Below are positions 5,031-50,794 of a DNA stretch of 64,000 bases, one piece after another. Both the position numbers and the translations under genes were made by a program. The first letter of the stretch is position 1; every line of letters starts with the position of its first letter. Source of the stretch: Mobula hypostoma (Eukaryota); the NCBI RefSeq assembly GCF_963921235.1, contig NC_086097.1, forward strand, positions 82,648,001 through 82,712,000. Direction: 5' to 3'. Below the pieces are notes generated by a model. That model was not told where the DNA came from. It did not search any database and saw nothing but the letters and a program-made list of their open reading frames with translations.

Positions 5031-7091
5031 ATAATGGTGATATAAGAAGGCAGCTGGCCACCAGCTGAACAATCATTGATAGACAGTGAAGTGATCTCTC
5101 CATCCCCTTTGGATGTGGGGATTGTTGACAAAGTCAGAATTTATCTTCCATTCCAGTCTGCTTGACTACCAGCCATGCTGCTTCACAATTCAGTGAAGTG
5201 TCAAACACAGTGCTGCAAGTATGAATGGTGAGTTACAGGACATAACGAAATTGGATTTCACTAACAGTTCATGATGGTGTTGCTAATACTTATTCCTTAT
5301 TTACTTCCATTGTTATTTGATCAACTGAGTTAATAGTCCCAGCTGACACAAGCCAATTGAACTTGTGTCTCTAACTCAGTAGTCCCAAGTCTGAATACTA
5401 ATCTGGTCATCACTGAAGTCAATTTAAATGGTGAAAAGTAAAATTAGTTTTGTTTTACTGAAAATGGTACATGTTCTCATAAAGACCTTATGAATGGCAG
5501 GTGAGGTACATAATCAGTTAATCTGTTTTGTTTTGGAGAACTTTCGGTTACACACTGAGTATCCACTCCTAATATTGGAACATTATTAGAATGGACATTC
5601 TTTCAGCTAGAAACAGAAAATAGCAGCAGGGAACAGAAAAATGAGATGTCTACATCTTTGCAGAGTTATTCTACTAGTCAGTAATTGAACACAGGCTAAT
5701 TATAAAGGACCTGAGAGAAGTGGAAGAACAATCATTCAGGATTCTGTTGCTTAAGCTTCCTCGTAAGGGACTTGTATTGTTGGTGCAGGTGGTTAATCAG
5801 TGTATGGTGCTTGGATCAAAAGGCAAAGCAAAACAGAAATAGCTTGCTGCCTTTGTTTCATTGAAATAAAGAATAGGGGAAGCCTACAACAATGGAGTAC
5901 GCGGTTTCAATTGTGTTTAAACCACAAAGGTTTGCAAATAGCACACTTAGGGGTGTATCACCATCTGTAACGAGTAATTAATATAAATTTTACTCTTTGA
6001 AAGAACTCTTGTATAGAGTAACAAATTGTTTTCAATGATTCACATTCTCGGGACAAGTGACACATTTTATACTTACCATGGTGTCATTGCATGGTCACAT
6101 TAAGTCTATCTGAGGCCAGATGGCACTAACTTTTTAAGCTTTGAACTTTCCTTGACTGGTGAACATTTCTTTCCTTCTAGTGATGAATAATAATAATGCA
6201 AATGCTTAGATGTAGCCCAATGTCACCTTTGCAATCTTGTTTGAAATTTGCATCCTTCACTCAATAAAAGTATTTTTCCACTGTCCACACTGGGATTAAG
6301 TCAATGTGAAGGTGTTGTGCACATTTTCATGGTGGTGTTGTGGAGCCACTTAGCTTCTAGTGTTTTGTCAAGTGTATTGTTGACAAAAAGGTTGGAAAAA
6401 GAATATTCACTGAGAATCAGGAAGTGTTCAGTTCCATTCTTAATTCCTCATGTAATGTAGTAGCTCATGTCTGTATACAGCAAGAATTAGACACAGAATT
6501 GGAATAAGATATAACAAGTAACCATTGGTGCCACTCAGCTGACATGTTATGATCATGTTAACCCAAAATGAGTCAAAGCTCATTACAGTGTCATTTAAAG
6601 TCATTACCGTAGCAAACAGTTGGTTTTACTGCAAGTAAAACCAATTTTGTTCAGTCAACAGACCACATAATGAGCAGAAGATAGATACTGCTACTATTCA
6701 TAGTAAAAGCTGGATAGTTTCTGCTTGGAAATATAGTGAGGAAAGGATAGTTTGTACACATAAGTTGCTCATAACCCTTTTGACTTGGGGTCTATACTGA
6801 GTTATTCTTGGCTGGTGAGCAGTGGTTTAAGAATCTCAGGGGGAGGAGGGGAAAATATTAATCAAGTTTCCCACTTCTGTAGGTTCAGATATGAAGATCA
6901 GATACACTGTAAATGTTAGGTGCTCCCATAGGTCTATATATTAGTGTTAGGAATCCTTCATGAAAGTAATGAAGAAGCTGGATGAAAGAAAAAGAACACG
7001 AGGAATTCTGCAGATGCTGGAAATTCAAGCAACACACATCAAAGTTGCTGGTGAACGCAGCAGCCCAGGCAGTATCTCTAGGAAGAGGTAC

Positions 7092-7127
7092 AGTTGACGT
7101 TTCGGGCTGAGACTATTCATCAGGACT
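7092..7127 (-). ncRNA. Degenerate minimal hammerhead ribozyme
   Basis: Reverse complement AGTC-CTGATGA-ATAGTCTCAGCCC-GAAA-CGTC-AACT; core intact, stems I and II mismatched. Confidence 0.55.
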
Positions 7128-7513
7128 AACTGAAGGAAGAGCTAGTAAGAGATTTGAAAGGGGGAGGGGGAGATCCAAAATGATAGGAGAAGACAGGAGG
7201 GGGAGGGATGGAGCCAAGAGCTGGACAGGTGATTGGCAAAAGGAATATGAGAGGATCATGGGACAGGAGGCCCAGGGAGAAGGAAAAGGGGGGGGGGAAC
7301 CCAGAGGATGGGCAAGGGGTATAGTCAGAGGGACAGAGGGAGAAAAAGGAGAGAGAGAAAGAATGTGTGTATATAAATAAATAACAGATGGGGTACGAGG
7401 GGGAGGTGGGGCATTAGCGGAAGTTAGAGAAGTCAGTGTTCATGCCATCAGGTTGGAGGCTACCCAGACGGAATATAAGGTGTTGTTCCTCCACCCTGAG
7501 TGTGGCTTCATCT

Positions 7514-7649
7514 TTACAGTAGAGGAGGCCGTGGATAGACATATCAGAATGGGTACAGTAGAGGAGGCTGTGTTTAGACATATCAGAATGGGTTACAGTA
7601 GAGGAGGCCGTGGATAGACATATCAGAATGGGTTACAGTAGAGGAGGCC
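7514..7649 (+). repeat. ~40-bp tandem repeat, 3.4 copies, between the PLE arms
   Basis: Unit TTACAGTAGAGGAGGCCGTGGATAGACATATCAGAATGGG starting at 7514, 7554, 7593 and partially at 7633. Confidence 0.95.
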
Positions 7650-7944
7650 ACCTCCCCCTCGTACTCCATCCGTTATTTACTTATATACACACATTCTTTC
7701 TCTCTCTCTCCTTTTTCTCCCTCTGTCCCTCTGACTATACCCCTTGCCCATCCTCTGGGTTTTTTTCCCCCCTCCCCCTTTTCCTTCTCCCTGGGCCTCC
7801 TGTCCCATGATCCTCTCATATCCCTTTTGCCTATCACCTGTCCAGCTCTCGGCTCTATCCCTCCCCCTCCTGTCTTCTCCTATCATTTTGGATCTCCCCC
7901 TCCCCCTCCAGCTTTCGAATCCCTTACTCACTCTTCCTTCAGTT

Positions 7945-7980
7945 AGTCCTGATGAAGGGTCTCGGCCTGAAACGTCGACT
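7945..7980 (+). ncRNA. Minimal type I hammerhead ribozyme motif
   Basis: AGTC-CTGATGA-AGG(GTCTCGG)CCT-GAAA-CGTC-GACT: both core boxes, stem I AGTC/GACT, stem II, palindromic ACGT in place of stem III; predicted cleavage after GUC at 7976. Confidence 0.8.
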
Positions 7981-8295
7981 GCACCTCTTCCTAGAGATGC
8001 TGCCTGGCCTGCTGCGTTCACCAGCAACTTTGATATGTGTTGCTTGAAAGAAAAAGAAGTCTGTTTGCGGTATGTAAATTTTTGAGGTATTTTACATGGT
8101 TGTTTTCTGAAAAAGAACCCAGAAGTAAACCACCTTCATTCCGAATTACATCTATCTAAGTTATGAATGAGTTTTATTTGTAGCTGAACTGTGCTTGTTT
8201 AAATCTGGTTTATTGCGGGTTAGCTATCATTATTGAAAAGGAATTGGACTTTGAATAATTTGTTAATAATTTGATATAATTTAAAATTTTATACC

Positions 8296-9360: not shown

Positions 9361-9639
9361 CGATAATAATACTCCAACACCAATTCTAAAAAATAGCCAA
9401 ATGCTACTGATAGACCAGAAGAGTGGGAATTTTAGATACATCCAGCAGTGAGAGAGTAAAAAGCTGATTATGAGAGAAAACTGGCTTATTGTATTGAAAC
9501 AAACAACAGGAAATCTACTGCTATATAGAAAAGAAGGGGATAAACTGGTTAAATCTGAGACCTTTGGAAGGTGAGATGGGAGAATTAATAGCAGGAAATG
9601 AGTAAATAAGTTAAAGCAATAGTTCAACTGAGCTAAAAA

Positions 9640-10381
9640 TGTTGCTGATTTTCATCTGTACTCACTGTCTGAGGCTTCTTATTTAAGTGCTCAACAATAA
9701 TCAGCCAGCACTGATGGATTCCAGTTGCCTTGATACAGTTTCTCCATGATCACAATGTCCTGGTGAAACCTTTCACCATGTTCGTCACTGACAGCGCCAA
9801 GATTTGCAGGGCAGAAGTCTAAATGGGAATGCAGAAAATGAATCTTTAGTGACATGTTGCACTTCATGGTCTTGTATGTGTGAAGCATGTTGTCAACCTG
9901 CTGTACATAGTTTGGTGCTCTGAAGTTAACAAGAAAATTTTGAACAACATCCTTGAATGCCTTCCATGCAATTTTGTCTGGTCCCACTTGAAGATCTTTT
10001 AAAAGCCTATTATTAATTATCTGTTTAATTTGTGGACTAACAAAGATCCTTAATCTTGGCACCAGTTATTCTGGGAATCATCTGTCTCAAATATTAAGAT
10101 CCTTCATGAAAATTCATAGCCTTTCTAAAACCTGTCTTACCATGCAGGATCCACCCTGCCTAAGCCTGTCCAGGCAGATCCGGACAAGATAGAAAACTTT
10201 TCAGCTTACATTGTGGGCAACATTTTAATTGACTTGAATTATGAATTGAATTAACAAATATATGCCATTTAGAAAAATAGTGTAAGAGAAGGAAATTTCA
10301 GGGTGATTTTCATGATCAGCTGCCAAGATCCGTAAGATACACCCAAAAGCTATCAAGAAGCAAAATCTTTGTTGTCCAGTC
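9640..10381 (-). mobile_element. Chapaev3-like DNA transposon relic (internally deleted)
   Basis: ORF 9691-10062 contains CNMSLKIHFLHSHLDF.P.NLGAVSDEHGERFHQDI..ME..YQG.W; end-like sequence GTTGTCCAGT at ~10371-10380. Confidence 0.7.
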
Positions 10382-17973: not shown

Positions 17974-20509
17974 AAGAAATACTCAAATGCTAAAATAGTA
18001 CAACCATGGCTGACAAGGGAAGTCAAAGCTAATGTAAAAGCAAAAGAGAAGGCATACAACAAAGCAAAAATGAGCAGAAAGATAGATTGGGAAGCTTTTA
18101 TGAATCTACAGAAAGCAACTAAAATAATCATCAGGAGGGAAAAGATGGCATATGAAAGCAAGCTAGCAAAAAACATCAAGGTGGATAGAAAAAGCTTTTT
18201 CAAGTATATAAAAAAACAAGAGAGGTGAGAGTGAATATAGGACAGCTAGAAAATAAGGCCGAGAGAAATAATAACTGGGGACAAGGAGATGGCAGATGAA
18301 CTAAATGAGTATTTTGCACTAGTCTTCACTGTGGAAGACACTAGCAGTGTGCCAAGTGTTGAAGGGTGTGAGGGAAGAGAAGTGACTGCAGTTACTATTA
18401 CAGGGGGATGATGCTCAAAAAGCTGAAAGACCTAAAGGTGCATAAATCACCCGGACCAGATTAACTTCACCCTAGGGTTTTGAAAACAGTAGCTCTAGAG
18501 ATTGTGGAGGTATTAAAAATTATTTTTCAAGAATCATTGTACTCTGGCATGGTTCTTGAGGACTGGAAAATTGCAGTTACTCCATTCTTTAAGAAAGAAG
18601 GGAGGTAGCATAAAGGAATTTATAGTTCAGTTAGCCTGACTGTGGTTGAGCAGATGTTGGAGTCGACTGTAAAGGATGAGGTTATGGAGTACTTGGTGAC
18701 CCAGAACAAGATAGGACAAAGTCAGCATGATTTCGTTAAGGAAAAATCTTGCCTGACAATCTTGCCTATTGGAATTCTTTGAGGAGATTACAAGCAGGAT
18801 AGATAAAGGGGATGCATTGGATGTTGTATATTTAGATTTTCAGAAGGCCTTTGACAAGGAGCCACACATGAGTCTGCTTACCAACCTAAGAGCCCTTGGC
18901 ATTACCAGAAAGTTCCTGGCATGGGTAGAGCATTGGCTAACTGGTAGGAGGTAGTGAGTGGGAATAAAATGATCCTTTTCTGGTGCTGCCTGTGAATAGC
19001 GGTGTTCTGCAAGGGTCGACGTTGGGACCACTTCTTTTTGTGGTGTATATCAATGATTTAGATGATGGAATAGATAGATGGCTTTGTTGCCAAGCTTGCA
19101 GATGATATGAAAATTGGTCGAGGGACAGGTAGTGTTGAGGAAACAGGAAGGTTGCAGAAGGGCCTAAACAGATTAGGACAATGGGCAAGAAAGTGGCAAA
19201 TGAAATACAATGTTGGAAAATGCATGGTCATACACTTTGGTGGAAGAACTAAATGTGCAGACTATTTTCTCAGCAGGGAGAAAATCCAAAAATCTGAGAC
19301 GCAAAGGAACTTGGGAGTCCTTGTGCAGAACACCCTAAAGGTTAACTTACAGGTTGAGTCGGTGGTGAGGATGGCAAATGTAGTGTTAGCATTCATTTCA
19401 AGAGGCCTAGAATACAAGAGCAAGGATGTGATGCTGAGGCTTTATAAGGCTCTAGTGAGGCCTCACCTTGAGTATTGTGTACAGTTTTGGGCTCCTCATC
19501 TAAGAAAAGCTGTGCTGGCATTGGAGAGGGTTCAGAGGAGGTTCACAAGGATGATTCTTGCAATGAAAGGGTTATCATTTGAGAAAAGTTTGATGGCTCT
19601 GGGTGTGTACTCACTGGAACTAGAATGATGGGGGGGGATCTCATTGAAACCTTTCGAATGTTGAAAGCGCTAGACAGAGTAGAAGTGAAAAGGATGATGA
19701 GGGATAGGACAACTGGGCACAGCCTCAGGATAGAGGGGCGTCCTTTTTAAACAGTGGTATGGAGAAATTTCTTTAGCCAGAGGGTGGTGAATTTGTGGAA
19801 TTTGTTACCACGGCAGCTATGGAGGCCAGGTCATTGGGCATATTTAAGGTGGAGATTGATAGGTTCTTGATTGATCACGGCATCAATAGCTATGGGGAGA
19901 AGGCCAGGGAGTGCGGTTGAGGAGGGGAAAAAGGATCAGCCATGACTGAATGGCGGATCAATCTCGATGGGCTAAATGGCCTAATTCTGCTCCTATGTCT
20001 TATGGTCTAAGATGAACTTCAGTTCTATAAAGTGCTATGCCAAGGTCCTACTTTGTTGTACCCTTCCATACTTTGAAGTCTTTGGTGGTAAAAGAAATAC
20101 CACCATTTAAAAAAAATCTAGAACTTTATGTAATTTGTCAATCCTGTCAGGTATTTGTGGTTCATTTCAACATTCACCTCACTTGACCCATTTTAGAATG
20201 CTGTGGCCATTTCATTTCCTGTGAATTACAAATATTGAATCCACACAGTATTATGGTAATCCTGCTCTGAAAAAGATTTGGCTCCCCTTGCAAGGCTGGT
20301 AATTTTCTGCATGTTTTTTGAATATCCTTGTATACGTCATAACCAGTCATTGAATTCAGAACAATGGAATGTTATCCATGTCTGCAGTAAGAGGAAATCA
20401 GAAAGTTCAACAAAAAGAATGGAAGTGTAAACATGGAAAAAAATTTGTCTCATTTCCAGAAGATGTATATAATTTAAATAAAAAAGCATTCTCAAGCCAC
20501 ATAGCTTTA

Positions 20510-21211
20510 CGAGGGATGATTGATAAGTTCGTGTCCTAAGGTAGAAGGAGTCAATTTTAGAAAACCTAGCACATCTATTTTTCAACATAGTCCCCTCCTA
20601 CATTTACACATTTAGTCCAGCGGCCATGGAGCATACGGATCCCTTCTTTGTAGAAGTCCGCGTCTTGGACCTCCAAGAAGTGGTCCACAGCCGGGGTGAT
20701 TGATAAGTTTGTGGCCTAAGGTAGACGGAGATGAGTTATACAGCTCTCATTACATGCAAGTGCAGTTCAACTCTTTGAGTGATTATGCAGAAAGTTTGAA
20801 GTTAATAACTCATCTCCTTCTACTTTAGGCCACAAACTTATCAATCACCCCTGCTGTGGACCACTTTCTGGAGGTCCAAGATGCCGACTTCTACAAAGAA
20901 AGGATCCATATGCTCCATGACCACTGGACTAAGTGTGCAAATGCAGGAGGCGACTATGTTGAAAAATAAATGTGCTAGGTTTTCTAAAATTGATTCCTTC
21001 TACCTTAGGCCACGAACTTATCAATCACCCCTGCTGTGGACCACTTTCTGGAGGTCCAAGACGCCGACTTCTACAAAAACGGGATCCGTATGCTCCACGA
21101 CTGCTGGACTAAGTGTGTAAATGTAGGAGGGGACTATGTTGAAAAATAAATGTGCTAGGTTTTCTAAAATTGAATCCTACCTTAGGCCACAAACTTATCA
21201 ATCACCCCTCG
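20510..21211. mobile_element. Mariner-derived fold-back non-autonomous element with five TIR copies
   Basis: TA-flanked CGAGGGATGATTGATAAGTT...AACTTATCAATCACCCCTCG; 180-bp units encode the mariner C-terminus (DFYKNGIRMLHDCWTKCVNVGGDYVEK*). Confidence 0.9.
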
Positions 21212-21825
21212 TATGTCATTCTCCTGTGATATATTTTTGTACCCATTAGTACTTTATCAAATACAGAGGCTTTATTACTGAAGTCTCAGATTCATTCTAT
21301 TTAAGTAGTTACTTCCCAAATTCCAGCAATGAAAGTATCCTTTAAAGTAATTTAATAATTAATTGCTATGTATTTTAGCTTACGCATAATTTATCATTTG
21401 ATTACCATTTTAACATAAAAATGCTTGATGGTCATTATAGACAAGAGAAGCTAAAGGATTGATTCTATGCTATGTGGATCTACTACTCTTTGAATTAATT
21501 AAACAACAGAGTTTCAGACTGTCCAGACATGAATGGAGTGGGTTATAAGAGGTTTGCTCATGAAGTAACTTTACACCTCAGTCTCCAGGTTAATTGCATA
21601 ATATCTAACAGTTATTGTAAAAATCACAATTAATGTAAGTTATTTATTTTGGTAATGAATGTAGTTAGTGTACAGTGATGTTTAGATACGATCTTAAGCA
21701 GATTATCAATTTGTCAAGGTATTTATTATATTGCTGTCAAAAATATTTAAATAAGTAATATTTACATAAATGTGTACATTTTGTATGACTCAAAAACAGT
21801 AGCAGTAGCTTTTTAAAAATGTCAG

Positions 21826-23055
21826 ACATCAGAGCAAGATTAGGCCATTCTGCCTATCGAATCTGCTCCACCATTCCAGCATGGCTGATTTCTTATCCCT
21901 CTCAGCCCCATTCTCCGGCCCCTCCCTGTAATCTTTGCCACCCTGACTAATCAAGAACCTATCAATGTTCACATTAAATATACCCACTGTTTTGGCCTCC
22001 AGCAGCAGTCTGTGCAATGAATTCCACAGATTCTCCACCCTCTGGCTAAAGAATTTCCTCCTCCTCTGTTCTAAATGGACGTGTCTCTATTCAGAGGCTG
22101 TGCTCCTTGGTTCTAGACTCACTCACTATGGAAAACATGCTCTCCACATCATCTCTATCTCGGCCTTTCAATATTTGATGGATTTCTATGAGGTACCTCC
22201 TATTCTTGTAAACTCCAGTGAGTATGGGCCTAGAACCATCAAAAACTCCTCGTACATTAACCCTTTCATCCCTAGAATCATTCTTATGAACACCCTCTGG
22301 ACCCTCTCCAATGCCAGCACATCCTCTCTTAAATAAGAGGCCCAAAACTGCTCACAATACTCTCAAGTACAGTCTGACCAATGCCTTATAAAGCCTTAGC
22401 ATTACATCCTTTATTTTAATTCTAGTTCTCTCGAAATAAATGCTACCATTGCATTGGCTTTCCTTGCCACTGACTCAACCTGCAAGTTAAACTTTAGGGA
22501 ATCCTGCACAAGTACTCCCAGGTCTCTTTGCACCTTTTGATTTTTGAATTTTTTTTTAGAAAATAGTCTACAACTTTATTCCTTCTACCGGAGAGCATGA
22601 TCATGTACTTCCCTACACTATATTCCATTTGCCACTTCCTTGCCTATTCTTCCAATCTGTCCAAGTCCTTCCGCAGACTCCCAGCTTCCTCAATGCTACC
22701 TGCCCCTCTGCATATTTTCTTATTGTCCACAAACTTGGCCACAAAGCCTTCGTCCAAATCATTGACATATAACATGAGAAGAAACAACCACAACACTGAC
22801 CCCTGTGTTAACACCTCTAGCTGCCAGCAGCTAACCAGAAACGGCCCCCTTTATTCCCACTCTTTGCCTCCTGCCAGTCAACCAATTTTCCATCCATGCT
22901 AGTATTTTTCCTATAATACCACGGGCGCTTATCTTGTTAAGCAGCCTCATGAGTGGCTCATTGTCAAAGGCCTTCTGAAAAAGCAAGTATACAACATCTA
23001 CTGACTCTCCTTTGTCTATCCAGGCTGTTATTTCCTTAAGGAAGTCCAACAAATA
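21826..23055 (-). mobile_element. CR1 3' fragment
   Basis: DVVYLLFQKAFDNEP, WLTGRRQRVGIKG and NLWNSL motifs on the minus strand. Confidence 0.9.
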
Positions 23056-32003: not shown

Positions 32004-35000
32004 ATGTTTTGTAATTGGGAAATAAACGCTTAAGATAGAAATCCTCCAAGTTTTCAATGTGTTTCAAGAATGTGCAGATTTAAAAGTGTATTACTGTAAA
32101 TAAATTTACTGTGTTTTAAACTACATTGTTAGCTGGAAGTATCTTCTCCTTGGTAGGGAGGAAGGACCCACCACTCAAGTAGTGGGCATTGGCAGCTAAA
32201 ACTTGCTGTGGAGGAGAAAGAGGAAGCAAACTAGTCTTTGAGCAGTTACTGTGTAATCCTTTAGTGACGGTACTCATGTCTATTTATATCTGATAGGGCC
32301 TAAGATCTTCGTGTGAGTCCAGTTTTTCTGCTGCATTCTGTTTCTTTCCATCTAGTAACAGATGATTGAAATGATCAGTTAACTGTACACATTCTGAAGC
32401 CAACAATGTTTGGCTGATGGAGGTGTTGACTTGGAAACAAACATTCTGTATATGCGGGAAAGTGGAACATAAAAAAAAAACGATCTGCTGGAAAAACTCA
32501 GCAGGTTGCACAGCATCTGTCATTTAGGGTGGAAGGTTGGCGGTGGGGTACAGAGGGAGAGAATTGTTAATTCATCAGGGCTGCTCACAGTATCTGTTGA
32601 CAATGTTTTGAGCAAGATAAAGTAAAAGTGAACCCAGTACCACGATGTGCCACCTCTGTGCTTGGCATAAAGCTGACCCAGAAATGTTCTAACCTTCAGC
32701 CAGATGATAGGCCTACTTACTTACTTACATCAAGCCACGCAATTTACCATGCATATTAAAATACTGAGTAGTGCAAGGAGCAAAAGAAATTTCACTTTTA
32801 AACCAGTTCAAGCTGGGTTTTAAAACTGCATAAGCTTGCTTGGAGATTTACAGCTTTGCTGTTTATTAACTGACCTTGTTTACACGTGGATTTGGTTGAG
32901 GAATATAAATTAAAATGGGTGGATGAAACTGCAATATTGCAGGGCACCTTGAATTATAGGAGTCCTTTAATGTTTTTTTTCCCCTCTGTTCTCGTAAAAT
33001 ACTACCAATACTGAAATCTGAAATCAGATCCGAACTTGCTGGAAGTATTCAGTAGCTCATATGAACGGTCACCAACCTGACAAGCTAACTCTGTTTCCCT
33101 TCCAACAGATGTTGACATCTCTCCTCAGTATCTCTAAGATTTTCCATTACTTAACATCTGGTATTATTCTACATTGATAAAGTATGTGTAACGACTAACA
33201 TTGATGTGTTTTTTATTATGAATGATTGAGGCCAGCTATATATTGCATGGGATAAGCCTGTCACTTCAGCTAAGATTGGGATCAGCACAGTAGCAGCTGT
33301 TGGAAGGTATTGGACACTAAGAGGAGAAGATATGAGGAAGGATGGGGGTTGGACTGCTACTTAATCTTCATATCATACGAAATCTTGTGGGCAGAGTAAT
33401 GGTGAGGGTCTGAAAGGAAACAAGAACCCTTCATTTGGCCAACGGGTTGTGCTGAAAGATACTGAAATGTTCTCTCCACTATTCACACCTTTTTTTAACT
33501 CCCTGGTTTTCTGTAATGCTGACGCTCAGCCAACCAGTCTGAAATTTGAAATGGAGCTATAATTAGAGACTTGCAACCTCCTAAAAATATGATATTGCAT
33601 TTCTGGGCTCGGGAGATGCTTGGTTGCCTGCACTGTATAAATACTGAGTCAGGGCATGTTGGGACTGATACTCAATGGCACGGCGTGTGATCAGTAAGCC
33701 ACAAGTAAAGCATTCATGGTTTCAGGATATTCTGCATATTTCACAAGTAACTTCAAAACCGAGACATTGTCTGTATTCTGCATCCTGAGTATGTTCACCC
33801 ACGGCAAGCTGCTGTGAAGAACTGTGTTAATATATCTCAATAACCTGTTCAGTGGTGTTGTCTGAGGATAGATATTGCCTTTGACACCACAAAGATTTTT
33901 TTCCTCTGATCTGTTAATAAAGCATAGGAAATTCTTGCATTCCTCTTAGAAAGAAAGTGGGGGAGAGGCATCTTAATCTTGCAATTCCAGCTAAGTCTCT
34001 GCTAACTTGGATAATTGTAGCTCTAACAGCTCCCGTAAAGTTAGGCAACATCAAGAACAAAATGTCTTGCTTGACAGGCATTGCAATCATTTCTTTAAAT
34101 ATTCACCTTGTTCATTGCTGTAGCTGAACTTTGTACCAGCCATTTGCCAATGTTTTTCTCTTCAGCATATCCTAACTTCATGACTTCTGCATTGGAGGAA
34201 GTACAAAGGCCCATGGGAACAACACAATTTGTAAATTAACGCCCACCACCTCCTTCTCCACCAAATCACCGACTGTATTAACTTGATGTCATTATAACCA
34301 AATTAAGATCTCAGAATGCCTAAAAACAACACTGTTTGAATTCATTTAACACTTAAATTGCTGTGTTTCAAGTAATCACTTGTCAAGAGCAATTTGTGAT
34401 GGTCAATAAAAGCTGGGCTTCTCGGCGCACTCCTATATCGAGAATGAATACGTGCCTTGGCTATTTTGCACTAAAAGAAACACAAAATGAACGATGATTG
34501 CTTTGAAATATGATGTTGGTGTAAATGTGATGGAGTTTCCCTGAAGGGGCAGAGCTTTCAGGACTCGACTTGCTGTTTGGAAATGGCAGACTGCTTTCTT
34601 CATGTACCCACTCTTAGTCGAGCAGCATCCAGAAGAATAATCTCACTGGCCTTTTGTGCCCATCGGTACAGAAGTAATGTCTCCAAATCAATCCAGATGG
34701 AAACAAAGCTAGGGAAGGAAGGAGCAATGCTGTCTGTCAAAACTCTTAGGGATTTTAAGCTTTTAAATGTCTTTCTCATGCACACTTTTAATAATTTGTA
34801 AAATTTAAATGAATGGCTAAAATGCATTCCGTTGTTTTACAAATAATAATTAAAACATAACACTTTTAAAATTATTTCAATAGTAGCAAAATTTAAAATC
34901 AGAAGCAGCCTTCTCCCTCTTGTTGCTGGGAAAGCCCCAGTGAAGCAAGGTGTCAGATTCTGCACGTGGTCTGATTCTGTGGAGTCCAGAGAAAGGCAAC

Positions 35001-37243: not shown

Positions 37244-40200
37244 TATGAGAGTAGGAATGCGATGAGGTGGAGGATAAATGCGTGGCTGAGGGATTGGAGC
37301 AGGGGGCAGGGATTCAAGTTTTTGGATCATTGGGACCTCTTTTGGCGCAGGCGTGACCTGTACAAAAAGGACGGGTTACACTTGAATCCTAGGGGGACCA
37401 ATATCCTGGCAGGGAGATTAAAGTCACCTCAGTAGCCCCCGCTAAACTAGAATGGTTGGGGGGTGGGAATCAAATTAAAGAGGCTAGGCGTGAGGAGGTT
37501 AGTTCACAACAGAGGGATGGGAACCAGTGCAGAGAGACAGAGGGGTGTAAAGTGAGGGTAGAAGCAAAAAGTACTAAGGAGAAAAGTGAAAGTGGCAGGC
37601 CGACAAATCCAGGGCAAGCATTAAAAAGGGCCACTTTTCAACATAATTGTATAAGGGCTAAGAGAGTTGTAAAAGAGCGCCTGAAGGCTTTGTGTGTCAA
37701 TGCAAGGAGCATTCGTAATAAGGTGGATGAATTGAAAGTGCAGATTGTTATTAATGATTATGATATAGTTGGGATCACAGAGACATGGCTCCAGGGTGAC
37801 CAAGGATGGGAGCTCAACGTTCAGGGATATTCAATATTCAGGAGGGATAGACATGAAGGAAGGGGAGGTGGGGTGGCGTTGCTGGTTAAAGAAGAGATTA
37901 ACGCAATAGAAAGGAAGGACATAAGCCAGGAAGATGTGGAATCGATATGGGTAGAGCTGTGTAACACTAAGGGGCAGAAGACGCTGGTGGGAGTTGTGTA
38001 CAGGCCACCTAACAGTAGTAGTGAGGTTGGAGATGGTATTAAACAGGAAATTAGAAATGTGTGCAATAAAGGAACAGCAGTTATAATAGGTGACTTCAAT
38101 CTACATGTAGATTGGGTGAACCAAATTGGTAAAGGTGCTGAGGAAGAGGATTTCTTGGAATGTATGCAGGATGGTTTTTTGAACCAACATGTCGAGGAAC
38201 CAACTAGAGAGCAGGCTATTCTGGACTGGGTTTTGAGCAATGAGGAAGGGTTAATTAGCAATCTTGTCGTGAGAGGCCCCTTGGGTAAAAGTGACCATAA
38301 TATGGTGGAATTCTTCATTAAGATGGAGAGTGACATAGTTAATTCAGAAACAAAGGTTCTGAACTTAAAGAAGGGTAACTTTGAAGGTATGAGACGTGAA
38401 TTAGCTAAGATAGACTGGCAAATGACACTTAAAGGATTGACGGTGGATATGCAATGGCAAGCATTTAAAGGTTGCATGGATGAACTACAACAATTGTTCA
38501 TCCCAGTTTGGCAAAAGAATAAATCAAGGAAGGTAGTGCACCCGTGACTGACAAGAGAAATTAGGGATAGTATCAATTCCTAAGAAGAAGCATACAAATT
38601 AGCCAGAGAAAGTGGCTCACCTGAGGACTGGGAGAAATTCAGAGTTCAGCAGAGGAGGACAAAGGGCTTAATTAGGAAGGGGAAAAAAGATTATGAGAGA
38701 AAACTGGCAGGGAACATAAAAACTGACTGTAAAAGCTTTTATAGATATGTAAAAAGGAAAAGACTAGTAAAGACAAATGTAGGTCCCCTACAGACAGAAA
38801 CAGGTGAATTGATTATGGGGAGCAAGGACATGGCAGACCAATTGAATAACTACTTTGGTTCTGTCTTCACTAAGGAGGACATAAATAATCTTCCAGAAAT
38901 AGTAGGGGACAGAGGGTCCAGTGAGATGGAGGAACTGAGCGAAATACATGTTAGTAGGGAAGTAGTGTTAGGTAAATTGAAGGGATTGAAGGCAGATAAA
39001 TCCCCAGGGCCAGATGGTCTGCATCCTAGAGTGCTTAAGGAAGTAGCCCAAGAAATAGTGGATGCATTAGTGATAATTTTTCAAAACTCGTTAGATTCTG
39101 GACTAGTTCCTGAGGATTGGAGGGCGGCTAATGTAACCCCACTTTTTAAAAAAGCAGGGAGAGAGAAACCGGGGAATTATAGACCGGTTAGCCCAACGTC
39201 GGTGGTGGGGAAACTGCTGGAGTCAGTTATCAAAGATGTGATAACAGCACATTTGGAAAGCGGTGAAATGATCGGACAAAGTCAGCATGGATTTGTGAAA
39301 GGAAAATCATGTCTGATGAATCTCATATAATTTTTTGAGGATGTAACTAGTAGAGTGGATAGGGGAGAACCAGTGGATGTGGTATATTTGGATTTTCAAA
39401 AGGCTTTTGACAAGGTCCCACACAGGAGATTAGTGTGCAAACTTAAAGCACACGGTATTGGGGGTAAGGTATTGATGTGGATGGACAATTGGTTAGCAGA
39501 CAGGAAGCAAAGAGTGGGAATAAATGGGACCTTTTCAGAATGGCAGGCGGTGACTAGTGGGGTACCGCAAGGCTCAGTGCTGGGACCCCAGTTGTTTACA
39601 ATATATATTAATGACTTGGATGAGGGAATTAAATGCAGCATCTCCAAGTTTGCAGATGACACGAAGCTGGGTGGCAGTGTTAGCAGTGAGGAGGATGCTA
39701 AGAGGGATGCAGGGTGACTTGGATAGGTTGGGTGAGTGGGCAAACTCATGGCAGATGCAATTTAATGTGGATAAATGTGAAGTTATCCACTTTGGTGGCA
39801 AAAATAGGAAAACAGATTATTATCTGAATGGTGGCCGATTAGGAAAAGGGGAGGTGCAACGAGACCTGGGTGTCATTATACACCAGTCATTGAAAGTGGG
39901 CATGCAGGTACAGCAGGCGGTGAAAAAGGCGAACGGTATGCTGGCATTTATAGCGAGAGGATTCGAGTACAGGAGCAGGGAGGTACTACTGCAGTTGTAC
40001 AAGGCCTTGGTGAGACCACACCTGGAGTATTGTGTGCAGTTTTGGTCCCCTAATCTGAGGAAAGACATCTTTGCCATAGAGGGAGTACAAAGAAGGTTCA
40101 CCAGATTGATTCCTGGGATGGCAGGTCTTTCATATGAAGAAAGACTGGATGAACTGGGCTTGTACTCGTTGGAATTTAGAAGATTGAGGGGGGATCTGAT

Positions 40201-40586
40201 TGAAACGTATAAGATCCTAAAGGGATTGGACAGGCTAGATGCGGGAAGATTGTTCCCGATGTTGGGAAGGTCCAGAACGAGGGGTCACAGTTTGAGGATA
40301 GAGGGGAAGCCTTTTAGGACCGAGATTAGGAAAAACTTCTTCACACAGAGAGTGGTGAATCTGTGGAATTCTCTGCCACAGCAAACTGTTGAGGCCAGTT
40401 CATTGGCTATGTTTAAGAGGGAGTTAGATATGGCCCTTGTGGCTACGGGGATCAGGGGGTATGGAGGGAAGGCAAGAGCGGGGCTCTGAGTTGGATGATT
40501 AGCCATGATCATAATAAATGGCGATGCAGTCTCAAAGGGCCGAATGGCCTACTCCTGCACCTATTTTCTATGTTTCTATGTTTCTA
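37244..40586 (+). mobile_element. Youngest CR1: ORF1 3' end + complete ORF2 with few lesions
   Basis: [49 protein letters not shown]. Stops at 38545, 38581 and 39328; +1 frameshift near 39705; (TTTCTATG)n tail. Confidence 0.97.
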
Positions 40587-42710
40587 TTCCATTTCTGGGG
40601 TTTTACACACAGTATTAGTTTCCTTATTTAAGAATGTCAATACATCTGACACAATTTGAAGGAAGTTTACTAAGTTAATGACTGGAATGAGTGGGCTGCA
40701 CTCTGAAGAAGGATTCAACAAGTGAAGTTTGTTTTTGGTGAACTGAAATGAATGGACCATTTGTGGATAGCATGAAGTGGGGCAATGAATGGAAAATATC
40801 TGAACTGCAGCATGTTTCTGAACTCTACATAGGTGTGGGAGTCAGGAAATCTTGACATACTCGTGTATTTTAATAGAAGAACAAATTATTGACCCAGTAA
40901 TGATGTCATAATCGTAACTACAATGAAAGAAAGCTCGTTTATGCATACTTTATTTGCAGTGGAGTGCAAATTTTAAAATCGGTCAATATGAAACAGCTAC
41001 ATTTTTATATTGACTATGAGTTCTTACTCAAGTCTTGACAGTCAAAGCCTCTGTATTGCATTTACTTCTTAAGATCCATATTAGTAATTGAAGCTTCTTT
41101 GCTGACTGATAATGACTATGGCACTTCATCCCAGCCGTTTTAACATTTACCAGCAGCTGTTTGAAGCAAAGGCCAACTGATCACTCCCAGCCAACACCCA
41201 AACCCTCCTCCTGGTGATATTAATGTGAATGTTACTTCGTGGGTCATCGCAGCAGTGACACACACATTCGCATACTACACACACGCACACAAAAGGCACG
41301 GGCAGAGGATTTTACAGCCACTGGAAACATTGGGAAGGAATATTTTACAATTTTCATCTATTAAATGTATGTAATTCAAATTTCTTCATTAATTATGAGA
41401 GCATTGTTGTTTTAGTTACTTATTTGTTTCAATTAATTGATTTTAGAAAGCATGAACCTGTGCATAGTGAAGTTCACCAGTCTGACTTGGTGAAATTTAG
41501 ATGTTATAGCTTCAGCAAATTTAAGTTTATGTCTTAATGTATTTCTTCCCTTTCATTTGGTTGTATTGTCTGTTACCTTTTAGTTTCAACTGCATTGCAA
41601 GCTAGCTGTTGACTGAGAAGGTGGTTAGTTAACTTCTGTCTTTTCCCATTGCTAACGTTTAAATGGCTGCCAGTGTATATGTGACAATGACGTAAGTTAG
41701 CTCAACGCTTACGCATTCTTTCTGATCTTAACCAGAACATTTTGTTTCTGCTTGTGACCTGTGCCAGATGGCTGTTTAAGCTTGTGGCCATATTTTCCCC
41801 TGTATAGCATTGTCTATTCATGTGCCCAGATGTAATGCTTGGAGACATCGAGGGTTTTAAAAGTATCAGCATTTTTATGTTCAACCTTCTGTTCAAGTTT
41901 ATAATATTTGGAGTATAGTTAACCATAGCACAATTAGCACTGACTTTCAGGATTTTACTGACCTATAAAGAATTCGGGCAATATTTATGCAGAATTTAAC
42001 AAGAAAAAGGCTAAACTTGGATGCAGTCTAGTTGTATCACAAATTACATTAATTTTTGGAAGCATTTTACTTCTCATGTTTACTGTTTACCCTTTGCTCT
42101 GTTTGTTTAATACCTCTTTAAATGATTATATCAAAAAATGGTGATGCAGAACAATTAAAAATTTAGGATTACTCGCAGTGCGAAACTGAGTGGAAATTTG
42201 GTGTGAACAGGAAAGAGGTGTTGCCTTTAGCCTGTGCTGCTAAGATGGCTTAGGTAAACTTGAGACAGTCAAAGTTTTTATTTTGGCACTTACTGCAGTC
42301 GAAATGAATGGCCGTAATCTTGATCTATGAACATATTTTCTGTATTAGACTGCAGTAGTTTGGAGATTGTGGCAATTGAGTCTGTCCATAATGCATATGT
42401 TTATAGTTGATAATCCTGCCTTGAATATTTCTTGCAGTGTTACTGAGTTGGAATTGGTGCTGGGGGGGGGGGGTGTCAGGGGGTGGTGGAGATGCACCTT
42501 GACCCCAGACCTTGTAGAGAAATACAAGATCAGGATTGATAGACCAACAATGCGCAAAGTGAGATAGGTACTGCGGATACACAGTAGGAAGGGGCTTGCT
42601 CATATGGCAGTTTTCTGTGATTTAACAGTTAATATCCTTTGTAAATAGGGTCAAGAATCTTACATAACATATTGCTCATCAGATGTCTGGGTAAGAAAAA
42701 TCTCAAACCA

Positions 42711-42863
42711 ACACACATAAAAAACGTTGGTGAACGCAGCAGGCCAGGCAGCATCTATAGGAAGAGGTACAGTCGACGTCTCGGCCTGAAATGTTCACCA
42801 GCATTTTTTTATGTGTGTTGCTTGAAATTCCAGCATGTGCAGATTTCCTCGTGTTAGCGTTTT
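42711..42863 (+). mobile_element. Collapsed palindromic Penelope-like remnant
   Basis: Same arm sequence as 49364-49594 with the centre deleted; flanks AAAAATCTCAAACCA (42696-42710) and AAAAATCTTGAACCA (42864-42878). Confidence 0.8.
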
Positions 42864-43030
42864 AAAAATCTTGAACCAGTTTGATTAGGTATTGGAGTGG
42901 GTGGGGTAAGATCAGCACATTGTGGTTCATGTTGAGACTGACAGCACTGGAAGGAGTAGGCAAGAGGTGTTGAGTGGAGAATTTGATAAGGTAGGACCTA
43001 CATTAAAAAGCACATTTCAATGATTATAAT

Positions 43031-46590: not shown

Positions 46591-47407
46591 GGCTCCCTAA
46601 TACTGTATGTATCGGTCTACTGAGAATGAGCACCCCCTCTGCAAAATGATCCTAGATGGTGCCTTTACCCTCACACTCGGCTCAGTTCATCCACTGATTA
46701 CAAGAGGGCTGGTCTTGCGCCTACTTTTAGATTTTGAAAGCTCAGGAGCGACAGCTGCATGAACAAACCCCATCGACCCGACAGCCAGGCTCTGACTATC
46801 CTACACTCAGCTGTTTCCAGGCCTTTCATTTCCTACAGTCTCGCTTTTGCTGAGTTTCAGCTGTAGATGGTCAGACTCAACAATGCTTTTTTTTTTCAGT
46901 TCTTATTGTGTTAGCTGATCCCTTCTTTGCAGTAGAAGACATTCTTCAAAGTAACCATATGAGACGTTTGATTTCAATGATTCCCATATCCTGTAGACTG
47001 GTGACGACTGGCCATGTACCTGCTGTTTCCAAAGCCTGATGTCAACAGCTTACAGCGATTTCCAATCTTTAAAGGCTACCTTTTAAACTGCTCTCAGCCA
47101 TTCCTACTACTTCCCCACTGACACAATAATCCTGTCTTTCACAATATCGTTAGCAGGGGATATACAAATCAGTTGACCCTTTGCTTTTTAACAGTCGATA
47201 CTGGACTGGAGCAGTAAGGTTGGGGGGTACCTTCAGGGCAACCAAATGAGGGTAATTTTGACTTTTGGAATGGTGCAAAATGCAAAGCAACAAATTACTT
47301 TCAATACTAGTAAATTTTGTGGGACCTATCTCCTTAACAGGCATGTTTTGCTGTTCCGTTTTATTTTGCTTGTACATACAAATCACAGAGCTGAGTCCAC
47401 ACAGAGA

Positions 47408-48466
47408 CACTGGTCCCTTTCGGAATGGCAGGCGGTGACCAGTGGGATACCGCAGGGTTCAGTGCTGGGACCGCAGCTGTTTACAATATATATATTTATG
47501 ATTTAGATTAGGGAATTAAAAGTAACATTAGCAAATTTGCCGATGACACAAAGCTGGGTGGCAGTGTGAAATGTGAGGAGGATGTTATGAGAATGCAGGG
47601 TGACTTGGACAGGCTGGGTGAGTGGGCAGATGCATGGCAGATGCAGTTTAATGTGGGTAAATGTGAGGTTATCCACTCTGGTGGTAAGAACAGGAAGGCA
47701 GATTATTATCTAAATGGAGTCGTTAGGAAAAGGGGAAGCACAACGAGATCTAGGTGTTCTTGTACATCAGTCACTGAAAGCAAGCATGCAAGTACAGCAA
47801 GCAGTGAAGAAAGCTAATGGCATGCTGGCCTTCATAACAAGGGGAATTGAGTATAAGAGCAAAGAGGTCCTTCTGCAGCTGTACAGGGCCCTGGTGAGAC
47901 CACATCTGGAGTACTCTGTGCAGTTTTGTTCTCCAAATTTGAGGAAGGACATTCTTGCTATTGAGGGAGTGCAGCGTAGGTTCCCAAGGTTAATTCTCGG
48001 GATGGCAGGACTGTCATATGTGAAAGATTGGAGCGACTGGGCTTGTATACTCTGGAATTTAGAAGGCTGAGAGGGGATCTTATTGAAACATAAAAGATTA
48101 TTAAGGGATTGGACACGCTGGAGGCAGGAAGCATGTTCCCGCTGATGGGTGAGTCCAGAACCAGAGGCCACAGTTTAAGAATAAGGGGTAGGCCATTTAG
48201 AATGGAGTTGAGGAAAAACTTTTTCACCCAGAGAGTGGTGGATATATGGAATGCTCTGCTCCAGAAGGCTGGGGAGGCCAAGTCTCTGGATGCTTTCAAG
48301 AAAGAGATGGATAGAGCTCTTAAAGATAGTGGAATCAAAGGTTATGGGGATAAGGCAGGAACTGGATACTGATTGTGGATGATCAGCCATGATCACAGTG
48401 AATGGCGGTGTTGGCTCGAAGGGCCGAATGGCCTACTCCTGCACCTATTGTCTATTGTCTATTGTC
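47408..48466 (+). mobile_element. CR1 3' fragment
   Basis: [36 protein letters not shown]; (CTATTGT)n tail. Confidence 0.94.
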
Positions 48467-48509
48467 ACACAACAGCCTTGTGCTTTCCCTGCGTGCAGAC
48501 TGAGTTCCT

Positions 48510-48770
48510 CCAAAGTTCAAAGTACATTTATTGTCAAAGTATGCATAAATTATACAAGCTTGCGATTCGTCTCCTTACAGGCAGCCACAAAACGAGAAAC
48601 TGGAAGGAACCCATTTTAAAAAAAAGACTAACACGCACCCAGTACACAGAGGAAGGGAAAAAACCACAGATCATGCAAACAATAAAAGCAAACATTCAGA
48701 ACTCAAGTGAGCCCATAGAAACAAAGCCCAGAGCAGCCGGAACAACCCCACAATTACAATTGCGCAACCG
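48510..48770 (-). mobile_element. Rex1-type 3'UTR tail fragment
   Basis: CAAAGTTCAAAGTACATTTATTGTCAAAG is the reverse of an AATAAA+(TTTGAAC)n tail; similar tails occur at ~51510-51693 (+) and ~56858-57150 (-). Confidence 0.6.
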
Positions 48771-49366
48771 ATAACCTTGATCTCCAGAAAGCAGATGGTT
48801 CAATATACCTGGCACTGGCAAGGCATCTACATGGAATGAGGCGGTGAAAGTCTCCTCCAGCTGTTGTGATAATTTATGAAGCGAGCTGTGTGATCTTGAT
48901 CCAGTGCCTGATGTACTTGGATAAATAATGTGTCACGATATTAAACTGACATCTTAGTATAAAAACAGCGGAGGCTGTTATGGAATTGAGGACAGGTGCA
49001 GAAAAATGTTATATCCTGAAGCTGGAATTGAAAACAATAGTTGATCCAAAATAAATGGCACTTCATTTGAATTGGTGTAAAACGTAACTTTCATGACGTG
49101 ACACAACAAGTGAAATGCGGGAGGTGGGATGGTGATGGTGGGGAAGGGTGAAGATTTGAGAATGGGATCGGAGCAGCATTACAGGTTGGTCGTGGAGGGT
49201 AGAAGGGGTGAATTACTAATTCCCATTCGCGTGTATATATCAAACGTCATTTCCATGAGTGTTCATAGCATCTTATGTCATACAAAGAATCAAATGAGCT
49301 CTGTAGAATTAGCACAGTAAATGACAAGAAGGCTATTTGATGCAAAACGTCATGTCTATTATCTCA

Positions 49367-49594
49367 AGCAACATACATCAAAGTTGCTGGTGAACGCAGC
49401 AGGCCAAGCAGCATCTATAGGAAGAGGCGCAGTCGACGTTTCAGGCCGAAACCCTTCGTCAGTCCTGACGAAGGGTTTCGGCCTGAAACGTCGACTGCGC
49501 CTCTTCCTATAGATGCTGCTTGGCCTGCTGCGTTCACCAGCAACTTTGATGTATGTTGCTTGAATTTCCAGCATCTGCAGAATTCCTGTTGTTT
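49367..49594 (+). mobile_element. Miniature palindromic Penelope-like insertion (perfect 99-bp arms)
   Basis: 49364-49462 is the exact reverse complement of 49465-49563, with a 2-nt spacer; ~31-nt one-sided tail; TSD ATGTCTATTATCTCA at 49352-49366 and 49595-49609. Confidence 0.92.
49460..49497 (+). ncRNA. Minimal type I hammerhead ribozyme motif
   Basis: CAGTC-CTGACGA-AGG(GTTTCGG)CCT-GAAA-CGTC-GACTG; 5-bp stem I; predicted cleavage after C49492. Confidence 0.8.
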
Positions 49595-50794
49595 ATGTCT
49601 ATTATCTCACTGTATTTGTACTGACATGAAGAATCTGTGATATATTTATAAGCCATGAAATTTGGCTTTGTAGTGCCAATTGTTTAAATGCTCCGGAAGT
49701 TGATATCCTTTGGATATTTTGAACAAGGTACGGAGACACAACATGTTTGCTGCCAGTTGCTTGACTGCTAAGAGTGGTATCACTGGCAGTGCTTATATAA
49801 ACCAAAGCTATGCAGGGCAGGCAGATCATGATTGCAATGCTTGTACAATGCTAATTTGATTCCAGCATTGCCAAAACTGGATATAAGCAGCAGTTCTCAT
49901 GCCATTTGTTCAAATGACACAGAGATCCCAACGGTTAGCAGTGACAAGCTAGACCCCACCCCACCCCACCTCCCCCACCCTCCAGCACCATCTATCCATA
50001 GAAACACTATTTAAAGAACTTTCAGTTATGTGTAGGCGACGATTGAAATGTAGAAGTGGTTGTCAAGTGCCACCGGTTTTTGTTTGCAGACGTTGTCAAT
50101 TTTCGGGAACTGTGTCAAAGGCTTAATTTAATCCTGACATATTAGGCTTCCTCTAAACCTTGTTACTTCCAGCCGTAGAGTGCTTGGTGATACATTTCCT
50201 TGGGTTATGTATGACGACAGTGAGTGAGAAGAGCACCCAAAGAGTAGGGTAACCTGTTAGGAGGAAGAAGATGGAGAGAATCGGCCTTAAGCAGATCCAA
50301 TCAACCAGAAGAAGAAAAGGAAGAGCATTCCTGCCATGAACACCTTTCCGAAGGAGCAGCTCTCAGTGGACATGTTGATTGGCATGCACCGTGTTCTTTC
50401 CACAAAAACCCACGCTACGTTGATAGGGCGCTCCCTTCTGCTCCTTGCCGTTGTACATGCAGTTCCAGGCAGGTCCGTCAATGGGTCCAACATTTTGTTT
50501 TATATGCACCTCTGTTCTCTTTGTCAGCTGCCCTACCAGAGTCCTCATTTAGGTACTCGTTTGAAGACCAGTGCATCCTCATCCTCTGGAAACAATTCAG
50601 AAACAATTCCTTCCCTTCTGCCATCAGATTTCTAATATTCATTGAGCATTACTCCATTCTTCCATTTTTTTTGCATTATTTGTTTTGTCATTTATAGTGG
50701 GATTTTTCTTTGTGTCTTTGCACTGTACTGCTGCCACAAAGCACCAAATTTCATGCCCTACAAGAATATGATAACACATCTGATTCTGAGTCTG

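What the first reader, a model, noticed from the sequence alone, without database searches (positions are those of the whole stretch)
6983..49609. Three Penelope-like insertions share one geometry: inverted arms, one-sided tail, 14-15 bp TSD
Seen: insertions at 6997-8044, 42711-42863 and 49367-49594 all have two inverted arms. One arm extends about 30-40 nt further (..TCCAGCAT.TGCAGA.TTCCT..TGTT). The short arm ends at about ..GTTGCTTGA and overlaps the TSD by a few bases. Sizes form a series of about 1050, 230 and 150 bp. Known: inverted terminal repeats with a tail occur in Penelope elements. Inferred: a stereotyped mechanism with a ~15-nt staggered cut and second-end priming by microhomology at a fixed position, followed by hairpin erosion.
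Basis: partly seen in the sequence, partly recalled or inferred. Interest (0 to 1): 0.7.

Follow-up and report, generated by a model that had tools for sequence, protein, structure and literature searches.

The report
Two-armed Penelope-like retrotransposon insertions
Three short, mirror-image insertions in a ray-like fish genome are ordinary truncated copies of a Penelope-like jumping gene in its already described two-armed form; empty sites in related species confirm the 15-base target duplication for one of them.

Summary
The three insertions are real and sit where stated (1048, 153 and 228 bp). Each has head-to-head arms, a one-sided tail (27-33, 43-45, 31-34 nt) and a 14-15-bp target duplication. 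The largest runs into a GIY-YIG ORF end 89% identical to a Mobula protein of Neptune-type Penelope-like element (PLE) build; the arms carry a minimal hammerhead. Contigs of three related organisms lack the 228-bp copy and hold its 15-mer once. Inverted arms, tail and TSD are textbook PLE features, and two internal RT start sites explaining the tail were shown in vitro in 2024. Short-arm overlap with the target is 4, 2 and 3 nt (post hoc p about 0.005), and each priming end finishes in CA. But the endpoint is a zone, not a fixed base: the 153-bp copy ends 2-8 nt earlier. Erosion is not needed: the youngest copy is already short, and other copies join at many asymmetric centres. Best reading: both target ends prime cDNA, and the truncated cDNAs join at birth; cDNA snap-back is the main rival. 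Known kind, modest interest.

The parts
6983..6996 (.). E1 target-site duplication, left copy (14 bp; last 2 bases shared with the tail end)
   Evidence: exact repeat of 8045-8058
6995..7023 (-). E1 tail (27-33 nt depending on junction overlaps)
   Evidence: aligns with the tails of E2 and E3, absent from the right arm
7024..7413 (-). E1 long (tail-bearing) arm: 3' UTR / pseudo-LTR with a decayed hammerhead-like motif at 7092-7127
   Evidence: inverted match to 7648-8048, 91% with gaps; motif read from sequence
7414..7554 (-). Last 46 codons and stop of the element ORF (C-terminus of the GIY-YIG endonuclease)
   Evidence: 89% identical to P0002 (Mobula hypostoma LOC134353856), E 1.1e-18; tblastn E 1.6e-34
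7514..7649 (-). E1 centre: 40-nt piece of the ORF repeated 3.4 times, then joined to the short arm through a 2-nt overlap
   Evidence: Tandem Repeats Finder; units listed
7648..8048 (+). E1 short arm, starting about 5 nt after the ORF stop; hammerhead-like motif at 7945-7980; last 4 bases shared with the TSD
8045..8058 (.). E1 target-site duplication, right copy
42696..42710 (.). E2 target-site duplication, left copy (15 bp; last 2 bases shared with the short arm)
   Evidence: 13 of 15 identical to 42864-42878; the two mismatches fit one decayed CpG (inference)
42709..42779 (-). E2 short arm, ending at ..GTGTTG
42778..42820 (+). E2 long arm: 17 nt of hammerhead stem II, a 42-nt deletion between two CGT words, then the arm end
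   Evidence: comparison with the E3 long arm
42821..42863 (+). E2 tail (43-45 nt); its last 8 nt are element sequence
   Evidence: loose-end consensus behind 49594 begins GCGTTTT in X1 and X5 (table 7)
42864..42878 (.). E2 target-site duplication, right copy
49352..49366 (.). E3 target-site duplication, left copy (15 bp; last 3 bases shared with the short arm)
   Evidence: exact repeat; present once at the empty site in runs X5, X19, X20 (table 8)
49364..49462 (-). E3 short arm
   Evidence: 99 nt, 100% complementary to 49465-49563
49461..49563 (+). E3 long arm, starting at hammerhead stem I (motif 49461-49496, predicted cut after 49492); stem-loop at 49533-49565 holds the short-arm end point
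   Evidence: motif features compared
49564..49594 (+). E3 tail (31-34 nt)
49595..49609 (.). E3 target-site duplication, right copy

Best explanation
These are dead, 5'-truncated copies of a Neptune-type Penelope-like retrotransposon made by double-ended target-primed reverse transcription. (1) The element's GIY-YIG endonuclease nicks both strands of AT-rich DNA about 13-15 nt apart [duplication shown for E3; enzyme inferred]. (2) Both target 3' ends are extended into antisense element sequence [polarity shown by the sequence]. One starts at the tail end, the other 30-45 nt further in, in the 3' strand of a stem-loop, probably helped by 2-4 paired bases (target CA against element UG) [start sites inferred from the anole enzyme; overlap seen]. 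(3) Both cDNAs, copied from one source lineage, stop early and join head to head through 0-3 shared bases, sometimes with re-copied pieces [junctions shown; enzyme unknown]. (4) Fill-in gives the TSD. Copy size is set mainly at birth; later deletion trims some copies.
For: ORF remnant 89% identical to a protein with RT (YIDD), CX4CxxC linker and GIY-YIG domain; longer relatives carry DKG, RVT_1 and GIY-YIG. Empty site with one 15-mer in 3 of 3 other organisms laid. In vitro the anole PLE cuts and extends both strands, starts RT at two internal sites that bound the tail, prefers AT-rich DNA and uses hammerhead-uncleaved RNA. Here TSDs hold 3-4 G+C in 14-15 bases and all arms that reach the hammerhead run past its predicted cut. 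The 15 best-supported centre joints of other copies (15 shown of 252 joints) are all different and asymmetric; 8 of 15 overlap by 2-3 nt against 16% expected (p 8e-4, selected rows). Fresh PLE insertions are short at birth. The youngest copy is short and the older E1 is long.
Against: The anole enzyme is Poseidon-type, starts without homology to the cut DNA and uses either start site on either strand; here 3 of 3 short ends overlap the target and 3 of 3 copies are tailed on one side only. The unpaired centre belongs to the tail arm in E1 and E3, and arguably E2, which snap-back predicts and symmetric twin priming does not (1 in 8 by chance). Both E3 arms share alleles carried by only 4-29% of family depth, so two unrelated RNAs are unlikely. 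The stem-loop is GU-rich, not AC-rich as in the anole element, and folds no better than shuffles (z -1.1 to +0.3). Only one of three empty sites was tested.
Confidence: 0.55

Rival explanations
1. One TPRT plus snap-back. Only the tail end is primed on RNA. The truncated cDNA folds back on a short inverted match and copies itself toward its start. That copy stops 30-45 nt short, near the stem-loop, and its 3' end captures the other target overhang through 2-4 bases.
For: Arms share rare alleles (E3) and subfamily marks (E1, E2). Centre spacer on the tail arm in E1 and E3. Overlap 4, 2, 3 nt at short ends against 2, 0 and 0-3 at tail ends. Self-priming was proposed for PLE palindromes.
Against: In the anole element both tail boundaries are RT start sites and both strands are extended. 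E3's turn needs a 2-bp stem with a 2-4-nt loop. E2's short arm holds 42 nt that its tail arm lacks, which requires a later deletion.
Confidence: 0.3
2. One reading: copies are born long, and the size series comes from later loss of hairpin centres.
For: E2 is the most decayed and the shortest, with a 42-nt deletion between CGT words. Microhomology-mediated deletions are common in rotifer Penelope copies. A perfect palindrome could collapse soon after birth, which age cannot exclude.
Against: E3 (0 of 114 differences, upper bound 2.6%; absent in a relative with 1.5% flank divergence) is already short, and E1 (5-7% between arms) is long. De novo PLE insertions have a median of 128 bp. Centre joints often hold added letters (table 5c), which deletion alone does not give.
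Confidence: 0.1
3. The short palindromes are a non-autonomous family that is copied as a ready-made hairpin, like a MITE or retrozyme.
For: The top centre joints have 55-155 depth against about 17-19 for single-copy flank, so some centres recur in several copies.
Against: The three window copies have three different centres; the 15 listed joints are all different, with 237 more joints unlisted. No fixed terminal sequence or fixed short TSD of a DNA transposon.
Confidence: 0.05

Closest known systems
Endonuclease-bearing PLE insertions with inverted pseudo-LTR, tail and TSD (Pen2a_Av and Pen2_Av, Arkhipova et al. 2013, PMC3846280; general scheme in Craig et al. 2021, PMC8557442; D. virilis form C, PMC2377424)
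   Same: Head-to-head inverted 5'-truncated copy, 30-40-bp tail on one end, TSD around the whole unit, palindromes at the inverted junction, one empty-site proof.
   Different: TSD 14-15 bp here against 8-10 bp in the rotifer; most of the ORF is missing here; 2-4-nt overlap between short arm and target was not found described in the passages read.
Poseidon_Ac (PAc) of the green anole, in vitro (Frangieh et al. 2024, PMC11167929)
   Same: Two adjacent internal RT start sites bound the tail, downstream of a hammerhead; both target strands cut and extended; AT-rich targets; uncleaved RNA is the template.
   Different: PAc is Poseidon-type; the ray element has the CX4CxxC linker of Neptune/Nematis. 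PAc starts without homology in an AC-rich stem-loop; here the short end overlaps the target by 2-4 nt in a GU-rich stem. The parts read give no TSD length or stagger.
Minimal hammerheads of metazoan PLEs (Cervera and de la Pena 2014, PMC4209133)
   Same: CUGAnGA core, extra base before helix II, GAAA, palindromic CG in place of helix III, 4-bp helix I.
   Different: Helix II is 4 bp, and the 10.1-11.1 pair is G-U in E3 and the E1 short arm. Rfam gave no hammerhead hit at E up to 5. Cleavage not tested.
L1 twin priming (Ostertag and Kazazian 2001; seen only as a reference title, content recalled)
   Same: Both target ends prime cDNA, and the two cDNAs join by microhomology into a head-to-head inversion inside a TSD (recalled).
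   Different: In L1 the second primer anneals anywhere upstream, so no terminal inverted repeat forms; here both starts lie within about 45 nt, giving terminal arms and a tail.

Membership tests
Endonuclease-bearing Penelope-like elements | C-terminal GIY-YIG endonuclease with CCHH motif behind a PLE-type RT | tested here: met
   The window holds only the last 46 codons. They match P0002-P0004, which show YIDD, CxxC inside GVIY..LYIG and two later His. Pfam GIY-YIG E 4.6e-4 to 2e-3, just under the curated cut-off; full-length relatives add RVT_1 and DKG.
Endonuclease-bearing Penelope-like elements | Inverted 5'-truncated copy with a 30-40-bp tail at one end | tested here: met
   3 of 3 copies; tails 27-33, 43-45, 31-34 nt; feature as stated.
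Endonuclease-bearing Penelope-like elements | Minimal hammerhead in the pseudo-LTR | tested here: met
   Core pattern found at 7949 (+), 49465 (+), 49462 (-); features match by inspection. Not found by Rfam.
Endonuclease-bearing Penelope-like elements | Target-site duplication, single at the empty site | tested here: met
   E3 only: X5 record 23 joins 49351 to 49595 with no letters between; X19 record 9 joins 49352 to 49596; X20 record 16 has 5 letters where 4 are expected. E1 and E2 empty sites not tested.
Endonuclease-bearing Penelope-like elements | Partial-tandem full-length source copy with direct pseudo-LTRs | not testable with these tools
   No whole genome held; no full copy in the window.
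Neptune clade | CX2-5CxxC linker between RT and endonuclease (shared with Nematis, absent in Penelope/Poseidon) | tested here: met
   CKRNKCYTC in P0002 and P0003; definition. This part is not in the window itself.
Neptune clade | RT phylogeny grouping with named Neptune elements rather than Nematis | not tested
   No named reference set was available; vertebrate PLEs were reported as Neptune or Poseidon.
Neptune clade | Insertion bias for microsatellites (hypothesised) | tested here: not met
   None of the 3 targets is a microsatellite; they are AT-rich or purine-rich 14-15-mers. The bias is a tendency, not a strict definition.
MITE / non-autonomous DNA transposon | Symmetric terminal inverted repeats with fixed ends and fixed short TSD | tested here: not met
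   Ends are asymmetric and vary, centres vary, and the largest copy holds a retrotransposon ORF end.
Non-LTR retrozyme | Head-to-tail tandem hammerhead repeats | tested here: not met
   Arms are head to head; the only tandem array is a 40-nt ORF piece.

The most novel reading that the evidence does not exclude
In ray Neptune elements insertion is ordered and asymmetric. A dimeric endonuclease cuts with a nearly fixed 13-14-nt stagger; the tail end is primed without homology; the second end must finish in CA and pair with one of two UG steps in the stem-loop. One-sided tails would then be the rule, not a coin toss. This would differ from the homology-free, strand-blind initiation seen for the anole Poseidon enzyme. 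The E1 centre may also record a telomerase-like habit of re-copying the last 40 template bases.
Probability: 0.25. Interest if true: 0.5.

Novelty: new member of a known kind. Interest (0 to 1): 0.27.

Why it matters
The late steps of PLE insertion (second-strand cut, second-end joining, origin of the inverted arm) are stated as unresolved in the papers read. Ray genomes hold very many young, short copies with clean non-microsatellite TSDs, and close relatives supply empty sites, as one search shows. They are good material for counting stagger, end points, target overlap and which arm carries the centre, which would separate twin priming from snap-back. The three copies here illustrate the known pattern and do not settle it.

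Tried and rejected
No whole genome was held, so the genome-wide table asked for could not be made. Pattern scans for more copies found nothing in viral contigs or GTDB genomes. The metagenome scan used a 16-nt word that was too short: 120 loci, best alignment 33 nt, no family copy. Phage collection: no match. Rfam: 5 weak hits, none a hammerhead. Short-arm end points are not among the six top loose-end places per run (24 rows shown, 1086 not shown); mirrored placement and the pile-up at E3's own tail end make this uninformative about a fixed end. Depth of tail against both arms was 0.53, 0.55, 0.72 and 0.66 in the four runs: compatible with one tail per two arms but not a copy count, so not used. 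The pile-up of joints at 49460-49463 is treated as an edge effect of the short reference. A possible tail remnant behind the LINE next to 56275-56323 scored no better than 272 of 5000 random places: rejected. A turn at the hammerhead cut site was rejected: E1, E2 and E3 centres miss it, and only 1 of the 30 arm limits in the 15 listed joints lies within 3 nt of it. Assembly artefact for the perfect E3 palindrome was rejected: both junctions are in source-run contigs, and tail and TSD fit the empty site. My note gave E2's deletion as about 52 nt; it is 42. Paper searches for a prior description in sharks or rays found none (Penelope, hammerhead, shark, inverted; Penelope, Chondrichthyes, palindrom); for TSD length and priming. 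[quoted passage not shown]
Full report
What was checked. I read the three loci and aligned arms and flanks. E1 (6997-8044) has its tail arm on the left, E2 (42711-42863) and E3 (49367-49594) on the right. TSDs are 14 bp exact, 15 bp with two adjacent mismatches, and 15 bp exact. Of 3000 random flank pairs at the same spacings, 1 shared a repeat of 14 or more. Tails are 27-33, 43-45 and 31-34 nt. E2's short arm ends at ..GTGTTG, 2-8 nt before the end of E1 and E3; the look-alike TTTGA lies in the TSD, whose two mismatches (CA against TG) fit a single CpG that decayed in opposite directions (inference). E2's tail runs 8 nt further; that stretch is element sequence, because contigs running past E3's tail end most often continue GCGTTTT (491 contigs in X1, 346 in X5). 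The trio is also a selection: a fourth piece of the subfamily and two older relatives in the window have no second arm.

What the element is. E1's tail arm continues into 46 codons and a stop on the minus strand. These match 4 proteins among 5 candidates, best 89% to a Mobula hypostoma protein and 76-80% to two from Hypanus sabinus. Those proteins carry YIDD, a CX4CxxC linker and a GIY-YIG domain with the CCHH cysteines (Pfam scores just under the cut-off). Longer relatives add DKG and RVT_1. The linker marks Neptune or Nematis, not Poseidon (PMC8557442, passages); no tree was built. The arms hold a minimal hammerhead core with the features listed in PMC4209133 (passages); Rfam did not detect it.

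Empty site. Public runs holding 5600-7510 were listed, and 4 of the 23 were laid on 48900-50050: X1 (possible source, not independent), X5, X19 and X20 (three other organisms). All are contigs. X5 record 23 aligns 48900-49351 to its letters 239-690 and 49595-50050 to 691-1146, with 14 differences in 908 bases and no gap: the element and one 15-mer are missing. X19 record 9 joins 49352 to 49596 directly, and X20 record 16 joins 49347 to 49595 with 5 letters where 4 are expected. X1 holds both filled junctions. E1 and E2 were not tested.

End points and overlap. Short arm and TSD overlap by 4 (E1), 2 (E2) and 3 (E3) bases, and each target end that runs into the short arm finishes in CA. Simulated random joins in this zone give a sum of 9 or more in 0.4-0.5% and all three at 2 or more in 0.6-0.8%; the test is post hoc with n = 3. 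Tail ends overlap by 2, 0-3 and 0. True nick spacing is therefore 8-14, at most 15, and 12-15; a constant 13-14 fits, and so does a variable one. Two listed contigs of other copies begin at the E2-type point, 49369 (table 8). The short ends fall in the 3' strand of a stem-loop predicted in all four arm sequences folded, but with z-scores of -1.1 to +0.3.

Centres and sizes. E3 turns at hammerhead stem I with a 2-nt loop and a 2-nt overlap. E2 joins through 2 nt and its tail arm lacks 42 nt between two CGT words. E1's tail-arm cDNA ends in 3.4 copies of a 40-nt ORF piece before a 2-nt overlap with the short arm. In other copies, the 15 best-supported joints (of 252; the rest not shown and not all necessarily centres) are all different and asymmetric, with spacers of -14 to 75 nt; 8 of 15 overlap by 2-3 nt against 16% expected (p 8e-4, rows selected by depth), and some joints hold added letters. 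Perfect hairpin centres may be under-shown in such contigs. Age does not order size: E3 has 0 differences in 114 duplicated bases, is absent from a relative 1.5% away and is 228 bp; E1 has 5-7% between arms and is 1048 bp. E2, oldest and shortest, fits erosion. De novo PLE insertions in Chlamydomonas have a median of 128 bp from 5' truncation (PMC9977147, passages).

Mechanism. Shown by sequence: both target 3' ends run into antisense element sequence; the arms meet head to head; the target is duplicated. Taken from the anole Poseidon study (PMC11167929, parts 1-2 of 4 read; supplements searched as text without hits; its supplementary figures S1-S2 could bear on stagger and homology and were not visible): the protein cuts and extends both strands, and RT starts at two internal sites that bound the tail. 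My best reading (0.55) is double-ended priming from one source lineage, early stop of both cDNAs and joining at birth. Against it: that enzyme needs no homology and treats both strands alike, whereas here all three copies are one-sided, overlap the target at the short end, and carry the unpaired centre on the tail arm (E2 ambiguous). Both E3 arms also share alleles found in only 4-29% of family depth. These points fit the rival (0.3): one cDNA that snaps back, copies itself and captures the second target end by 2-4 bases, akin to the self-priming proposed in PMC3846280 (passages and Discussion). Erosion as the main source of sizes (0.1) and a ready-made hairpin family (0.05) are weaker.

Comparison with what is known. 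Inverted truncated copy, one-sided 30-40-bp tail, TSD, junction palindromes and an empty-site proof are all in print (PMC2377424 passages; PMC8969392 passages). TSD length is described as variable, 8-10 bp in the rotifer. I found no paper on these elements in sharks or rays and none on twin priming in PLEs (3 papers listed, none on the topic by title and abstract start), but the library is partial. Also seen as passages: bioRxiv 10.64898/2026.07.22.740005 and PMC12910113 (nothing used); PMC3649969 gave one reference line. Earlier scan notes on shark and ray copies reach similar readings; they are unchecked leads, not support.

Verdict. A real, correctly spotted but known insertion geometry in a new host family. 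New here: proof of a 15-bp duplication from three empty sites, and a hint of CA-UG pairing at the short end. A fixed end point and hairpin erosion are not supported. Interest 0.27.

Noticed in passing
window 7514-7649: At the end of E1's tail-arm cDNA a 40-nt ORF piece is repeated 3.4 times; the first jump back has no shared bases, units 1 and 3 are identical and unit 2 differs. Could be RT re-copying the end of a broken template, or later duplication.
   Followed up: partly
window 7648-7655 against 7409-7416: E1's short arm begins about 5 nt after the ORF stop, so it covers almost exactly the 3' UTR. May be chance, or may reflect priming on the upstream pseudo-LTR of a tandem transcript.
   Followed up: no
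window 20508-21213: Unrelated foldback element: ends read TA-CGAGGG inward on both sides, one inverted copy and 2.2 tandem copies of a 180-nt unit. The ends look mariner-like with a TA duplication (recalled, not tested).
   Followed up: partly
window 56275-56323: Fourth, single-armed fragment of the same subfamily, cut near the short-end zone and abutting a LINE piece (56324-56635) that ends in CTGATT repeats; no TSD found.
   Followed up: yes
window about 32440-32520 and 54680-54720 (minus strand): Older, diverged relatives of the arm end (nhmmer E 0.01 and 0.02); no second arm or TSD found.
   Followed up: partly
loose ends at 49460, 49497 and 49550: A second subfamily with a different arm interior is abundant in all four runs and relatively more so in X19 and X20.
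   Followed up: no
table 5: The top centre joints have 3-9 times single-copy depth, so the same centre recurs in several copies: junction hot spots, or occasional re-copying of a hairpin copy.
   Followed up: no
loose ends before 49462 in X20: 85 contigs start at hammerhead stem I with unlike sequence before it (median 167 nt, agreement 0.35): possibly a 5' truncation hot spot, possibly an edge effect.
   Followed up: no
window 37393-40579: Little-decayed LINE with an open 384-codon endonuclease frame (Pfam Exo_endo_phos) and RT pieces; related fragments at 1571-2652, 18442-20004, 21824-23049 and 47412-48462.
   Followed up: no
window 9691-10065 (minus strand): 124-codon frame with no Pfam hit; it resembles the C-terminus of Chapaev-type transposases (recalled, not tested).
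   Followed up: no
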